A DNA stretch of 64,000 nucleotides from the human T2T-CHM13v2.0 reference genome, Homo sapiens: the NCBI RefSeq assembly GCF_009914755.1, contig NC_060927.1. The stretch is one strand, 5' to 3'. Below are positions 13,010-22,725 of the stretch, in pieces. The translations under genes were made by a program, and so were the position numbers. The stretch's first letter is position 1; each line of letters opens with the position of its first letter. Under the pieces are notes generated by a model that did not search any database, was not told the origin of the DNA, and saw nothing but the letters and a program-made list of their open reading frames with translations.

Positions 13010-13115
13010 CTGAAAGTATCTCTGGTCAATTAGGGCCTGTTGCTGATTATATTTGCTGGGCTCATCTTTCTTCTCTGTGTCCTCAGCCTTCTTATGATTA
13101 ATAAGCTCCTGTAAT
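13010..13115 (-). CDS. CEP70: CEP70 coding exon, 106 bp, phase 2 to 0: [35 protein letters not shown]
   Basis: Strong pyrimidine tract with tttag|A; donor CAG|gtattg. Confidence 0.94.
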
Positions 13116-13307
13116 CTAAAAGGGGGAAAAAAATCAAGATAATACAAAATTACTTCCTAGACACTGGACCAAGATGATAAACTAAGTCAATGATCCAGCC
13201 ACCCTCCCAACAGCCTTATATCACTTTACTTATATGTGTGTGTGCACACATGTATGTATGTGTATGTATAAACACATACATATATGCATATATAGAGTTA
13301 AAAAAAA

Positions 13308-13603
13308 TTTTTTTTTTTTTTTGAGACAGAATCTCGCTCTATCACCCAGGCTGGAGTGCAGTGGCGCAATCTCGGCTCACTGCAAGCTCCGTCTCCCGGG
13401 TTCACACCATTCTCCTGCCTCAGCCTCCTGAGTAGCTGGGACTACAGGCGCCCGCCACCATGCCTGGCTAATTTTTTATATTTTTAGTAGAGACGGGGTT
13501 TCACCGTGTTAACCAGGATGGTCTCGATCTCCTGACCTCGTGATCCACCCACCTCAGCCTCCCAAAGTGTTGGGATTACAGGCGTGAGCCACCGTGCCCG
13601 GCC
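13308..13603 (-). mobile_element. AluY-like
   Basis: Antisense dimer with AluY diagnostic positions. Confidence 0.9.
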
Positions 13604-14149
13604 AGAGTTTAAAATTTTTTAAATCATATTGTCACTGGAAAACTAGAAGGCCCTCTCAATAAATCGCAAATTAGAAGGAATCTCTGAAGACAGAAGAGAT
13701 CAGATTGAAGAAGAAAGTTCTAACCACCCCCCAGCACCCACAAAAGACAGCACAAGAGAGAAATACAACAAAGGATGGAAGCGACTTCCATCCAACGTGC
13801 TCCAAGATCACAGACTACAGATAAAGGGAGCAGGAAGCATGGGAAGGGCCACTGGTTTGGGTACTGTAGCAGGAACAGCTAGACGTTTGGTCCCTCTCTC
13901 TTTGTATTCTACCAGTGGCAAAGAACAGAAAATGGCAATGCCTGGGCCAGTCAAGAGGGCGTGGAGATCCAACAGACCATTATTCCAGGTGGCTACTAGA
14001 ATGCTAGGGGAAAGGAGAGTCTCTTCACCCAGAAATACAACTATGTATAAGTGTATCCACCTAGTAGTAAACACTTGTCCTTCTCCAAATATCTAGAAGA
14101 CAGGCTGTAATAATCTTTCTTCTCCCTCCTCATGGCTTTGAAAACAGTA

Positions 14150-14753
14150 CAGTAGTACACGCTGATCCGTAGTTTCATTTTCCATGGTTTTAGTTATGCA
14201 AGGTAAACCAGGGTCCAAAAATATTAAAAGGAAAATTCCAGTAATAAATAAGTTTTTTTATTTTATTTTTTTTTAATGCTCACTAGTCTGAGTAGTGTGA
14301 TGAAATCTCATGCTGTCCCACTCCATCCCACCTAGGATGTGATTCATCCCTTTGTCCAGCTTATCCATGCTGTAACTGTATACATACACTACCTACCAGT
14401 TAGTCACTTAGTAGCCATCTTGATTATCAGATCAACTGTTGGGTACCACAGTGCTTATGTTCAAGTAACAATCCTTATTTAACTTAATAATGGACCCAAA
14501 ATGCAAGAGTAGTCATGTTAGCAATTTTGATGTGCCAAAGAGAAGTCATGAAGTGTGTCCTTTAAGTGAAAAGGTGAAAGTTCTCCACTTAAGAAAAAAA
14601 GTGTATGCTGAGGTTGCTAAGATATACAGTGAGAACGAATATTCTATCTGTGAAATTGTGAAGAAGGAATAAGAAATCTGGGCTAGTTTTGCTGTTGGAC
14701 CTCAAACTGCAAAAGTTACAGCCACAGTGTGTGATACATGCTTAGTTAAGATG
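14150..14753 (+). mobile_element. MER44, larger fragment
   Basis: TA|CAGTAGT TIR; antiparallel homology to the element at 51826-52556; ends abruptly at AAGATG. Confidence 0.8.
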
Positions 14754-14760
14754 ACCTCAG

Positions 14761-15016
14761 GATCACCTGAGGTCAGGAGATTGAGACCAGCCTGGGCAAC
14801 ATGGTGAAACTCCCTGTCTACTAAAAAAAAAAAAAAAGAAAAACAAATACAAAACTTAGCTGGATATGGTGGCGCATGCCTGTAGTCCCAGCTACTCGGG
14901 AGGCTGAGGCAAAAGAATCGCCTGAACCTGGGAGGCAGGGGTTGCAGTGAGGTGAGATCGTGCCACTGCACTCTAGCCTGGGTGACAGAGTGAGACTCCA
15001 TCTCCAAAAAAAAAAA
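14761..15016 (+). mobile_element. AluS lacking its first ~60 nt (inversion breakpoint)
   Basis: Starts at GATCACCTGAGGTCAGG. Confidence 0.88.
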
Positions 15017-15283
15017 GAAATACTGTGTTAGGACTAATGGCATGGAGAGTTTTGAATGCTAGCCCAAGGATATTAGATTTAGCACATAAAAAAATGAGAA
15101 ATCATTGATTGTTTTTCAACAGGAAAATGACATGATGGAGTTTTACTATTCTATTTTACAAACAGCAGGCAGAGCGCATCGTTAATGAGTCATAGAGTCA
15201 GTTTAGTGGGTTGAAGTCCCAGCAGGAAACTGATGGCATACTCAAATTGAAGAGGGGTAATTTGAAGGATTATTACGAGACTA

Positions 15284-19652: not shown

Positions 19653-20295
19653 GCAATCAATTCTCATTATTCATGGTAGTTATGTTCTATAAAATCACTA
19701 TGAATGCTGAATTAGCAAATACTGAACCACTGCTCCTAGAGGAAATACAGGGTCAGGGTCCTGCAAGTCTGGTCACATTTTCCTTAAATGATCAATATAT
19801 AACCTTGTTGTCTGTATGTTTCTATTTAAAGACACCTTTAAAATATATATTTTTTTGATTCATTAACATTGAACTCATGGACAACAGCACTCTATAACTC
19901 ATACCTGATAAAGCTTATCTAATAGGTGTATTTTTTCCACAAGGCATATTATAGCCTTCTTGTGGATAAGAACACCAAACAGCACTTCAGCACTAACTCA
20001 GAGGCCATCTTAAAGAAATCACCAACAAAAGGCATAGAAATGCAAAAAAAAAAAAAAAAAAAAAAAGTATCACTAAATAGATGGACAAAAGGACATTTGT
20101 TTATAGTATGAGAGCTCAAACAACAGGGCAGATCATCATCTTGTTTGAAAACTAAACATGTGTGTGTTGGGTGACCCAAATTATTTGCCGCTGTGTACAT
20201 GTCCATGAATGACTACAGGTGCTGTATGGATTTGTGATTATAAATAAATTTTAGCAGGTAGACAAATTCATAAATATGGAATCTATTAATAATGA
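19653..20295. mobile_element. Tigger-type DNA transposon (MER82-like)
   Basis: Begins CAATCAATTCTCATTATTCATGGTAGTTATGTTCTATAAA; degenerate inverted terminus near 20290. Confidence 0.6.
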
Positions 20296-20955
20296 AGACT
20301 ATTTATCTCTATGTATGTGTAAGTGCATACACATGTGTACGTGTGTGTGTGCATGTTATACACTTGCTTTAGAGTCAACAGTCAATTCTCATTATTGCCT
20401 TCTCTTTTTACTTCCCTACATCCTCCTTCTCCTAGTTGCTTCTCTCTCAATCTCCTATCTCATTAGTGGCACTGACAACCACCTTGTTATTCAAGGTTAA
20501 AACTCGGGAGACTTCTGACTCTTCCTTTTCCCCCACAACTCCCTATATTCAACCCATCATGAAGTCCTATTAGTTCTACCTCCATTCTCCAATTCCAAAT
20601 ACTTCTCATCACCTCCACTACTGCCACCTTTGACCATGTCACTACCATCTCTTCTCCAAACTCATATAATGGCTACTCTCCCACGATTGTACGTTTAGTA
20701 CTTATAGCATATCGAAATTGTCTTATTTTTTCATTATCTTTCTCCCTTCATGTAATCTCTATGAGGTCAGGGACCTTTTCTATTTTGTTTACCACTGCAA
20801 CCAGTGCCTAGAATGCCAAACAGATGTAAGAAGAACTGTAAGTACACAAAATATCAAGGAATAGTAGGAAGGGAATAATTATTCATTGAATATGCATGCA
20901 TCCTTTCTGAACCTTCCACTTCTCTTTTCTTGTTTAGTTTTCCTCCTCTATTATC

Positions 20956-21263
20956 TTTTTTTTGGGGGGACGGGGGGTGGAGGGACAGGGTCTTGCTCTG
21001 TTGCCCAGGCTGGAGTGCAGTGGTGTGATCACAGCTCACTGCAGCCTTGACCTCCTGGGCTCAAGCAATCTTCCCACCTCAGCCTCCTAAGTAACTGGGG
21101 CTACAGGTAAGTACCGCCACACCTGGCTAATTTTTAAATTCTTTGTAGAGACAAGGACTCACTACATTGCCCAGTCTGGTCTCAAACTCCTGGGCTCAAG
21201 CAATCCTCCTGCCTCAGTCTCCCAAAGTGCTGGGATTACAGGCGTGAGCCACTGCACCTGGCC
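20956..21263 (-). mobile_element. AluJ
   Basis: Antisense dimer with a G-rich segment at the tail junction. Confidence 0.85.
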
Positions 21264-21963
21264 CCTATTATTTTAACCCAGTATGTAATTCCTGGATACT
21301 CATGATACTTGCCTGTCACTGTGTTATGTGTTGCCATAGGAAGGAGGAAACAGAGCTGTCGCTGAAAACTGAATCATATGCTAATACAACTGACTTAATA
21401 TATTTAATGCATATATTAACTCATAGCTTTCAAAATATGTCATCCCAACACTCCCCACTTTCTCAAATCCCATTCCCTTGAATCAAAGAGTACACATAGA
21501 TAATCTTCAGAAAACACAATCACTGAGATCAACTCTTTGAAACACTGAGCACTTGCTTTTCAAAGTCAGGAAGGGTACAAGCAGTAGATATAAATGGCTC
21601 ACTGCATTCCTTCTGGTACTTTTAAAGTGTGATAACGCTCACTTTAAAACATTCAGATCATAATTATCAACAGCAAAAATTGGAGGCTTGTCACTTCTAA
21701 TTTCATTGATTCTCTTGCAATTCTTCCATTACTTCCCAAGATAATTTTCTATTTAAAATCTTTGTCCTTTATTACTTTAGGCAACTACCTTTTTTGTTCT
21801 CACTTAAATATATAGCCAAATCCAGCATGGTAGAAATTGCTCTTAAACTGTGAAACCAGAAACACCCCCTTTTAATGTCATTTTCCCCATCAGCCTGGTA
21901 GGTCCAAGCCAAAGCCACTAGTAGGTAGCATAAGCTGACATGTAATAAAAATAAATAAAATAA

Positions 21964-22259
21964 GGCCAAGCGCGGTGACTCATGCCTGTAATCCCAGCAC
22001 TTTGGGAGGCAGAGGCGGGTGGATCACGAGATCAGGAGATCCACACAGTGGCTAACACAGTGAAACCCCGTCTCTACTAAAAATACAAAAAAAAATTAGC
22101 CAGGGGTGGTGGCAGGTGACTGTAGTCCTAGCTACTTGGGAGGCTGAGGCAGGAGAATGGCGTGAGCCCAGGAGGCAGAGCTTGCAGTGAGCTGAGATTG
22201 TGCCACTGCACTCCAGCATGGGCGACAGAGCAAGACTCCGTCTCAAAAAATAAATAAAT
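21964..22259 (+). mobile_element. AluY-like element whose tail hosts the L1PA4
   Basis: Alu dimer with AluY-type GGAGAATGGCGTGA and GAGCTTGCAGTGAG; flank ATAAATAAAATAA at 21951-21963 recurs at 30008-30020. Confidence 0.9.
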
Positions 22260-22362
22260 AATAAAAATAAATAGGGGTGGAGCCAAGATGGCCAAATAGG
22301 AACAGCTCCAGTCTACAACTCCCTGCATGAGCAACGCAGAAGACGGGTGATTTCTGCATTTC

Positions 22363-22725
22363 CTACTGAGGTACGAGGTTCATCTCACTGGGGAGTGTCG
22401 GAAAGTGGGTGCAGGACAGTGGGTGCAGCGCACCGAGCGTGAGCCGAAGCAGGGCAAGGCATCGCCTCACCCGGGAAGCACAAAGGGTCAGGGAATTCCC
22501 TTTCCTAGTCAAAGAAAGGGGTGACAGACAGCACCTGGAAAATCGGGTCACTCCCACCCTAACACTGCACTTTTCAAACACCCTTAGCAAACGGCACACC
22601 AGGAGATTATATCCCGCACCTGGCTTGGAGGGTCCTACGCCCATGGAGCCTTGCTCTTTGCTAGCACAGAAGTCTGAGATCAAACTGCAAGGCGGCAGCG
22701 AGGCTGTGGGAGGGGCGCCCGACAT
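22363..22725 (-). CDS. L1 antisense ORF0, open for 120 codons ([22 protein letters not shown]...RVGVTRFSR...)
   Basis: Part of ORF 22363..22794 from the ATG at 22725; closely resembles primate L1 ORF0 ([22 protein letters not shown]...). Expression not shown. Confidence 0.7.

What the first reader, a model, noticed from the sequence alone, without database searches (positions are those of the whole stretch)
13010..22725. Intact L1 ORF0 with a splice donor in frame to the next CEP70 exon: predicted ORF0-CEP70 C-terminal fusion protein
Seen: the L1PA4 is antisense to CEP70, so its 5'UTR antisense promoter points in the CEP70 sense direction. ORF0 is open from the ATG at 22725. Both known ORF0 donors are present: CAG|GTGCGG after nt 106 (22620, phase 1) and CAG|GTGCTG after nt 191 (22535, phase 2). 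The next CEP70 exon (13115) takes phase 2, so donor 2 gives ...VTRFS-R(AG+A)-LQELINHKK with no frameshift. Established: primate L1 antisense promoters drive chimeric transcripts, and ORF0 can splice to neighbouring exons to form fusion proteins. Inference: a protein of 64 ORF0-derived residues plus the CEP70 C-terminal half (at least 262 residues in this window), lacking the N-terminal coiled coils. It would be expected only where L1 is derepressed (germ line, pluripotent cells, tumours). Donor 2 is weak, and no expression evidence is visible here.
Basis: partly seen in the sequence, partly recalled or inferred. Interest (0 to 1): 0.8.

Follow-up and report, generated by a model that had tools for sequence, protein, structure and literature searches.

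The report
Old L1 in CEP70 intron; hypothetical fusion
An old, broken L1 retrotransposon in a CEP70 intron still has an open antisense ORF0 that could in principle splice in frame to the next CEP70 exon, but that fit is expected by chance, depends on the weakest splice site, and has no expression support, so the locus looks ordinary.

Summary
The sequence facts hold. A full-length, decayed L1 (+ strand, 22274-30024, carrying an SVA) lies antisense in a CEP70 intron. Its ORF0 homologue starts at 22725 (L1 nt 452) and is open for 120 aa. GT donors follow ORF nt 106 (phase 1) and nt 191 (phase 2). CEP70 exon 13115-13010 takes 2 nt, so only the nt-191 donor is in frame.

The fit carries little information. 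This ORF has plausible donors in all three phases. 6 of 11 in-window CEP70 exons would fit donor 1 or 2. 17 of the 29 closest L1 copies in the genome have the same open ORF0, donor 2 and phase.

The in-frame donor is the weakest of four. None of the 29 relatives has G at +5. The other three donors give early stops inside the CEP70 exon. A published EST pair splices this donor to an acceptor inside the L1, which this copy also has.

CEP70 is named in no L1-chimera paper or supplement I could search, and RefSeq lists no exon here. Published base rates are low: 57 fusions among about 3200 ORF0 loci, and 2.9% of L1 chimeric transcripts spliced.

Verdict: real geometry, unsupported and improbable fusion protein. 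Expression cannot be tested with these tools.

The parts
22274..30024 (+). Full-length but decayed L1 (L1PA-type) with 5'UTR, broken ORF1 and ORF2, and an A-rich tail. It is antisense to CEP70 and about 6.2 kb long once the SVA is removed.
   Evidence: The 5' end motif GGGGTGGAGCCAAGATGG is at 22274. Pfam finds Transposase_22 and Tnp_22_dsRBD (23907-24317), Exo_endo_phos (24675-25511) and RVT_1 in two pieces (27204-28216). The longest + strand ORF is 278 aa. The A-rich tail ends at about 30024.
25355..26884 (+). SVA-like insertion inside the L1, made of a CCCTCT-type run, an antisense Alu-like part, a VNTR of 37-40-nt units, and a poly(A) tail. It is flanked by a direct repeat (AGAACTAGAG).
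22363..22725 (-). ORF0 homologue: ATG at L1 nt 452, 120 codons, then TAG.
   Evidence: Residues 1-63 match 44 of 63, ungapped, with the ORF0 peptide of EST CF594064 in Criscione 2016 Table S3 (compared by eye). There is no Pfam match.
22614..22622 (-). Donor 1, CAG|GTGCGG, exon end 22620, phase 1. It is out of frame with the CEP70 exon and gives a stop after 63 aa.
   Evidence: 14 of 29 related copies have AG|GT here.
22552..22560 (-). Extra donor AGG|GTGGGA, exon end 22558, ORF nt 168, phase 0. The homologous site is used in ESTs DA449585 and DA858938.
   Evidence: 27 of 29 copies have GG|GT here.
22529..22537 (-). Donor 2, CAG|GTGCTG, exon end 22535, phase 2. This is the only donor in frame with CEP70 exon 13115.
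   Evidence: CAG|GT is present in 29 of 29 copies, and G at +5 in 0 of 29.
22465..22473 (-). Extra donor CGG|GTGAGG, exon end 22471, ORF nt 255, phase 0. It has the best crude score of the four.
   Evidence: 27 of 29 copies carry G|GTGAGG.
22387..22400 (-). Acceptor inside the L1 5'UTR antisense strand (ccccag|TGAGATG, exon start 22387). Donor 2 joined to it removes 147 nt and gives a 71-aa ORF0-only product.
   Evidence: ESTs CF594064 and CF594290 use the homologous junction. The window product was computed. AG is present in 24 of 29 copies.
22838..22840 (-). Single upstream ATG in the antisense leader (4-codon uORF, L1 nt 567).
13010..13135 (-). CEP70 exon 13115-13010 with its acceptor. It takes 2 nt from the upstream exon.
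   Evidence: and the RefSeq table supplied with the finding.
30064..30138 (-). Native upstream CEP70 exon. Its donor (CAA|gtaatt) lies 39 nt from the end of the L1 A-tail.
21965..22262 (+). Alu directly 5' of the L1, antisense to any L1 antisense-promoter transcript. The first minus-strand poly(A) hexamers follow at 21876 and 21773.

Best explanation
This is an ordinary fixed, mutationally dead full-length L1 of an older primate (L1PA) subfamily, lying antisense in the 16.9-kb CEP70 intron between exons 30064 and 13115.

Like most of its closest relatives, it still carries the family's antisense ORF0 and GT donor motifs. The match between the nt-191 donor and the phase of the next CEP70 exon is a coincidence.

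The most likely state is that the antisense promoter is silent in most cells. This step is inferred, not shown.

If the promoter fires, the expected products in rough order are:
1. Unspliced run-off RNA encoding only the 120-aa ORF0 variant.
2. RNA spliced inside the L1 (donor 2 to the acceptor at 22387).
3. RNAs spliced to CEP70 from the stronger donors (nt 106, 168, 255). These hit stop codons inside exon 13115-13010 and should be degraded by nonsense-mediated decay.

The in-frame ORF0-CEP70 product would be at most a rare minor isoform. It would have 63 ORF0 residues, one junction Arg, and CEP70 residues about 316-597.
For: Geometry and L1 identity.

Chance level:
- Donors exist in all three phases.
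- 6 of 11 in-window CEP70 exons take 1 or 2 nt and so would fit donor 1 or 2.
- 17 of the 29 nearest genomic copies have ATG, an open frame, CAG|GT and phase 2 at donor 2. 14 of 29 have an ORF of at least 120 aa.

Weak in-frame donor:
- The crude score is 0.4, against 4.0, 1.9 and 5.0 for the other three.
- G at +5 occurs in 0 of 29 copies.
- The start context has T at +4, against G in 28 of 29 copies.

Non-productive alternatives: stops come after 63, 61 and 90 aa.

Internal acceptor: it is used with this donor in 2 of the 2 'TRFS' peptides of Criscione Table S3, and it is present in the window.

Promoter decay: the 5'UTR has 27 CpG in 910 nt, observed/expected 0.38.

No expression trace:
- 0 papers hold CEP70 together with L1 terms.
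- CEP70 is absent from the held supplements of six L1-chimera studies.
- No RefSeq exon among 25 transcripts lies between 13116 and 30063 (table supplied with the finding).

Base rates:
- 57 fusions among about 3200 genic ORF0 loci (Criscione 2016 citing Denli 2015).
- 44 of 1509 L1 chimeric transcripts are spliced at their 5' end (Pinson 2022).
Against: - All sequence prerequisites for the fusion are intact, and the acceptor is a constitutive one with a good pyrimidine tract.
- On my crude score, donor 2 (0.4) falls inside the range of CEP70's own donors (-0.7 to 7.3), so it is not unusable.
- Antisense promoter activity is reported for L1PA1 to L1PA6-8. 13.5-20.6% of such elements gave chimeras in brain and glioma.
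- The catalogue searches were by gene name only. I did not check that each table names host genes. Denli's list of 57 fusions and the supplements of Adami 2025 could not be read.
- No testis, embryo or stem-cell junction data could be queried.
Confidence: 0.82

Rival explanations
1. In cells where L1 is derepressed, the antisense promoter of this L1 starts transcripts that use the nt-191 donor and the CEP70 acceptor at 13115. The product would be a stable protein of about 346 aa: ORF0 residues 1-63, an Arg, and the CEP70 TPR and C-terminal region.
For: - The frame is open across the junction and to the end of the window.
- ORF0 fusions with exons are a described class.
- The retained CEP70 part corresponds closely to the 327-597 fragment, which is stable when expressed and binds ALMS1 and CEP135 (with the numbering).
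Against: - It depends on the weakest donor.
- That donor competes with an internal acceptor 147 nt away, whereas the CEP70 acceptor is 9.4 kb away.
- The start context is weakened.
- There is no annotated exon, EST or catalogue entry.
- Base rates are about 2-3%.
Confidence: 0.03
2. The antisense promoter is sometimes active, but only non-coding or non-productive RNA results. The products would be unspliced run-off ending at nearby poly(A) signals, or out-of-frame L1-CEP70 chimeras removed by nonsense-mediated decay. There could be minor interference with CEP70 transcription.
For: - Most L1 chimeric transcripts are unspliced: 1465 of 1509 showed no evidence of 5' splicing.
- Minus-strand poly(A) hexamers lie 400-500 nt beyond the L1 5' end.
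- The stronger donors all give premature stops.
Against: - There is no evidence of any transcript start here.
- CpG decay and the age of the element argue for low promoter activity.
- CEP70 is not named in the Pinson 2022 supplements.
Confidence: 0.15
3. The L1 antisense promoter acts as an alternative promoter for an N-terminally truncated CEP70 translated from an internal CEP70 AUG, independently of ORF0. One route would be a start in the '+200' antisense promoter region, downstream of the ORF0 ATG and of donors 1 and 2.
For: Two antisense start regions, +450 and +200, are described. ESTs that start inside ORF0 exist (CB989728).
Against: - The only strong donor near the +200 region has its exon end at L1 nt 198 (22471), so it may lie upstream of such starts.
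- No annotated CEP70 transcript starts here.
- The same lack of expression evidence applies as above.
Confidence: 0.02

Closest known systems
ORF0-exon fusion transcripts of primate L1 (Denli et al. 2015, Cell 163:583). The paper is not held here. I know it through citing passages, and from recall.
   Same: - Antisense ORF in the L1 5'UTR starting at about nt 452.
- GT donors inside the ORF.
- A downstream host exon in the sense orientation.
- An in-frame join is possible.
   Different: The described fusions rest on RNA and protein evidence, whereas this one is a sequence prediction only. The ORF here is 120 aa rather than 70-71 aa. The in-frame donor lacks G at +5, and the start context has T at +4. 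I could not check whether CEP70 is among Denli's 57 loci.
L1 antisense-promoter chimeric transcripts (LCTs; Criscione 2016 PMC4908685; Pinson 2022 PMC9396940)
   Same: A full-length L1PA-type element with a 5'UTR lying antisense in an intron. This is the standard substrate for LCTs.
   Different: CEP70 is not named among the 988 EST-supported genes. It is also not named in the held Pinson supplements. Most LCTs are unspliced.
EST pair CF594064/CF594290 (Criscione 2016 Table S3)
   Same: The same donor (after ...TRFS, ORF nt 191) and the same internal L1 acceptor (before SEMNLVPQ). Both are conserved in the window copy.
   Different: That locus is a younger, L1HS-like copy, and its RNA stays within L1 and flanking sequence. 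It is not joined to a host coding exon at this donor.
Experimental CEP70 TPR-CT fragment, residues 327-597 (PMC10820798)
   Same: The hypothetical fusion would keep about residues 316-597. That is this fragment plus about 11 residues.
   Different: The fragment is a laboratory construct with a Strep/FLAG tag. The fusion would instead carry 64 L1-derived residues, and it is not known to exist.

Membership tests
LINE-1 (L1) full-length element | L1 5'UTR start, ORF1 and ORF2 (endonuclease and reverse transcriptase) domains in order on one strand, and an A-rich 3' tail | tested here: met
   5' motif at 22274. Pfam ORF1, EN and RT hits in order on the + strand. A-rich tail to about 30024. The reading frames are broken into pieces.
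L1PA4 subfamily | Subfamily-diagnostic positions relative to reference consensus sequences | not testable with these tools
The 29 nearest copies are 91-93% identical over 398 nt. That fits an older L1PA subfamily but does not name it.
L1 ORF0 locus | Antisense ORF in the 5'UTR starting at about L1 nt 452 | tested here: met
   The ATG at 22725 is L1 nt 452. Garza 2023 gives nt 451 for the start codon. 44 of 63 residues are identical to a published ORF0 EST peptide (by eye).
L1 ORF0 locus | Strong Kozak context | tested here: inconclusive
   -3 is G, but +4 is T. 28 of 29 relatives have G at +4. That 'strong Kozak' is a defining feature is recalled from Denli 2015, not read here.
L1 ORF0 locus | Two splice donors inside the ORF | tested here: met
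GT donors follow nt 106 and nt 191. Use of the homologous sites is seen in ESTs.
ORF0-host gene fusion (expressed) | Transcription start in the antisense promoter | not testable with these tools
   No CAGE, RNA-seq or EST data can be queried. There is no RefSeq exon in the L1 (table supplied with the finding).
ORF0-host gene fusion (expressed) | Observed splice junction from an ORF0 donor to a host exon | not testable with these tools
   CEP70 is not named in six catalogues' held supplements, nor in any full text together with L1 terms.
ORF0-host gene fusion (expressed) | Join preserves the host reading frame | tested here: met
   Donor 2 only. Donors at nt 106, 168 and 255 give stops after 63, 61 and 90 aa.
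ORF0-host gene fusion (expressed) | Protein evidence (Ribo-seq or mass spectrometry) | not testable with these tools
   None is available.

The most novel reading that the evidence does not exclude
In germ cells or early embryos, where L1 promoters are demethylated and CEP70 matters for spermiogenesis, this ape-lineage L1 would drive a minor isoform. The isoform joins 64 L1-derived residues to the CEP70 TPR and C-terminal region (about residues 316-597). That region binds ALMS1 and CEP135 but localises poorly to the centrosome. Such a protein could act as a soluble competitor of full-length CEP70, giving a lineage-specific modulator of a centrosome protein.
Probability: 0.03. Interest if true: 0.5.

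Novelty: new member of a known kind. Interest (0 to 1): 0.12.

Why it matters
If the fusion were real, it would add one more case of an L1 antisense promoter and ORF0 rewiring a host protein, here a centrosome and cilium protein needed for male fertility in mice.

As it stands, the locus mainly shows that an in-frame ORF0-to-exon arrangement should not be read as a prediction.
- ORF0 offers donors in all three phases.
- 17 of the 29 sister copies examined keep the ORF open.
- So an in-frame fit of this kind is to be expected at many antisense L1s by geometry alone (inference).
- Published data show that only a few percent of such loci give spliced or fused products.

Tried and rejected
- Denli 2015, Speek 2001 and Matlik 2006 are not held. 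The exact SD1 and SD2 positions and the list of 57 fusions therefore could not be checked.
- The supplements of Adami 2025 could not be read.
- Earlier scan notes were not open.
- I looked for a retrocopy as a trace of germ-line expression. CEP70 exon 13010-13115 occurs once in the whole assembly. There is therefore no processed copy, native or chimeric, and the test says nothing either way.
- Pfam finds no family for the 120-aa ORF0 variant, nor for the minus-strand ORFs at 25687-26375 and 22961-23236. The ORFs at 25687-26375 lie in the SVA repeat array.
- I did not align published EST DNA to the window by tool, because that sequence comes from neither the window nor a stored locus. The 44 of 63 identity was counted by eye.
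- Splice strength was scored only with a crude matrix built from recalled consensus frequencies. No MaxEnt model was available, so the ranking of donors is indicative only.
- I considered that the 120-aa length was a copy-specific frameshift. I rejected this because 14 of 29 relatives are also open for at least 120 aa, and 0 of 29 stop at 70-72 aa.

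
Full report
**What is there**

On the + strand a full-length L1 starts at 22274 with the usual 5' motif. Its A-rich tail ends at about 30024. Pfam finds L1 ORF1 domains at 23907-24317, the endonuclease at 24675-25511, and the reverse transcriptase in two pieces at 27204-28216. 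No + strand ORF exceeds 278 aa, so the element is coding-dead.

The extra 1.5 kb is an SVA-like insertion at 25355-26884. It has a CCCTCT-type run, an antisense Alu-like part, a VNTR of 37-40-nt units, a poly(A) tail and a flanking direct repeat.

CEP70 runs on the minus strand, so the L1 is antisense to it. The L1 fills the first 7.7 kb of the intron between exons 30138-30064 and 13115-13010.

**The observation**

- The minus-strand ATG at 22725 is L1 nt 452. Garza 2023 places the ORF0 start at nt 451 (passages).
- The frame is open for 120 codons to TAG at 22365-22363.
- Its first 63 residues match 44 of 63, without gaps, to the ORF0 peptide of EST CF594064 in Criscione 2016 Table S3 (my count by eye).
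- Translating the eleven in-window CEP70 exons gives one open frame. In it, exon 13115-13010 receives 2 nt from upstream.
- Donor 2 therefore joins in frame, and the frame stays open through the remaining 788 exonic nt of the window.
- Every sequence statement of the finding is confirmed. The 'L1PA4' label could not be tested.

**Is the fit more than chance?** No.

- The ORF holds two more GT donors: AGG|GTGGGA after nt 168 and CGG|GTGAGG after nt 255, both phase 0. The first is used at the homologous site in ESTs DA449585 and DA858938. With donors in all three phases, any downstream exon is in frame with one of them.
- The open ORF is a family trait. A search of the window's own assembly gave 5320 first-look candidates, of which 40 were scored.
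- I compared the 29 best non-self copies, which are 91-93% identical, site by site and without building any consensus:
  - 28 of 29 have the ATG.
  - 17 of 29 have ATG, a frame open through donor 2, CAG|GT and phase 2.
  - 14 of 29 are open for at least 120 aa.
  - 0 of 29 stop at 70-72 aa.

**Which products would form?**

The crude donor matrix uses recalled consensus frequencies, so only the ranking should be read. Scores and outcomes when each donor is joined to exon 13115:

| Donor | Crude score | Outcome when joined to exon 13115 |
|---|---|---|
| nt 255 | 5.0 | stop after 90 aa, inside the exon |
| nt 106 | 4.0 | stop after 63 aa, inside the exon |
| nt 168 | 1.9 | stop after 61 aa, inside the exon |
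| nt 191 (in frame) | 0.4 | open to the window end |

- CEP70's own donors span -0.7 to 7.3 on the same score.
- The weakness of the nt-191 donor is family-wide: 0 of 29 relatives have G at +5.
- The three premature stops have at least five exon junctions downstream. By the usual 50-55-nt rule (established knowledge) these RNAs are substrates for nonsense-mediated decay.
- The only 'TRFS'-containing peptides in Criscione's Table S3 are 2 ESTs from one locus. They show this donor spliced to an acceptor inside the L1 5'UTR, not to a host exon.
- The window keeps that acceptor (ccccag|TGAGATG, exon start 22387), as do 24 of 29 relatives. The 147-nt intron leaves the frame unchanged and gives a 71-aa ORF0-only product. 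This acceptor is 147 nt away, whereas the CEP70 acceptor is 9.4 kb away.
- The start context has G at -3 but T at +4, where 28 of 29 relatives have G.
- The 5'UTR has 27 CpG in 910 nt, observed/expected 0.38.
- Unspliced transcripts would meet minus-strand poly(A) hexamers at 21876 and 21773.

**Expression evidence**

None could be found.

- Full-text searches returned 0 papers for each of these combinations:
  - CEP70 with 'antisense promoter' and LINE-1
  - CEP70 with L1PA4
  - CEP70 with L1PA
  - CEP70 with 'chimeric transcript' and retrotransposon
- CEP70 is not named in the held supplements of these studies:
  - Criscione 2016: 11 files
  - Jonsson 2019: 9 files
  - Garza 2023: 1 file
  - Pinson 2022: 3 files
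  - the 2023 Mobile DNA pan-cancer study: 11 files
  - Lanciano 2024: 11 files
- Caveat: these were name searches. I did not verify that every table names host genes.
- Adami 2025's supplements were unreadable, and Denli 2015 is not held.
- The RefSeq table supplied with the finding lists exons of 25 transcripts. None lies between 13116 and 30063.
- The CEP70 exon occurs only once in the assembly, so there is no retrocopy to examine.

**Base rates, from passages read**

- About 3200 genic ORF0 loci, of which 57 gave observed exon fusions (Criscione 2016 citing Denli 2015).
- 8744 L1PA1-7 elements with a 5'UTR, 1509 chimeric transcripts in brain and glioma, and only 44 (2.9%) spliced at the 5' end (Pinson 2022).
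- Two start regions, +450 and +200 (Pinson 2022). The +200 region lies downstream of the ORF0 ATG and of donors 1 and 2.

**The protein, if it were made**

- Just outside the window, the best candidate for the last coding exon has a good acceptor at window -356 and adds 20 codons before a stop. This exon is inferred, not annotated in what I was given.
- With 597 aa in total, the junction codon is residue 315. The fusion would keep about residues 316-597.
- That is close to the TPR-CT fragment 327-597. In cells this fragment binds ALMS1 and CEP135 and shows no or weak centrosomal localisation. The coiled-coil half, 75-326, carries localisation and gamma-tubulin binding (passages).

**Verdict**

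The geometry is real, but the fusion protein is an unsupported possibility of a known kind. I put about 3% on a biologically meaningful in-frame fusion, about 15% on occasional non-productive antisense RNA, and most of the weight on an ordinary, essentially silent L1. Expression data, which these tools do not hold, would settle it.

Noticed in passing
window 25355-26884 (+): An SVA-like composite element is inserted in the L1 ORF2 region. It has a CCCTCT-type run, an antisense Alu-like part at 25421-25671, a VNTR at 25787-26360 with 37-40-nt units, and a 14-nt poly(A) run ending at 26884. It is flanked by a direct repeat (AGAACTAGAG). The interval has 59 CpG, observed/expected 0.46.
   Followed up: partly
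window 30025-30064: The A-rich tail of the L1 ends only 39 nt from the 5' splice site of CEP70 exon 30138-30064 (CAA|gtaatt, a weak-looking donor). That is unusually close for a 7.7-kb insertion next to a constitutive exon.
   Followed up: no
window 22614-22622 and loci L002-L030: At the donor-1 site, the 29 nearest L1 copies split between forms with GT (CAGGTG..., 14 of 29, plus 2 with CATGTG...) and forms with GC or GG (CAGGCG..., CAGGCA..., CATGCG..., CATGCA..., CAGGGG..., 13 of 29). The pattern looks like CpG decay making or unmaking this donor copy by copy.
   Followed up: partly
loci L002-L030, and window 22363-22725: In this older L1 subfamily, the antisense ORF does not end at 70-72 aa in any of the 29 copies. 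It is open for at least 120 aa in 14 of 29. The family's ORF0 is thus longer than the 70-71 aa quoted for L1HS.
   Followed up: partly
window 21965-22262 (+): The L1 5' end abuts the A-rich tail of an Alu. This Alu is antisense to any transcript leaving the L1 antisense promoter, which is the orientation known for Alu exonisation.
   Followed up: no
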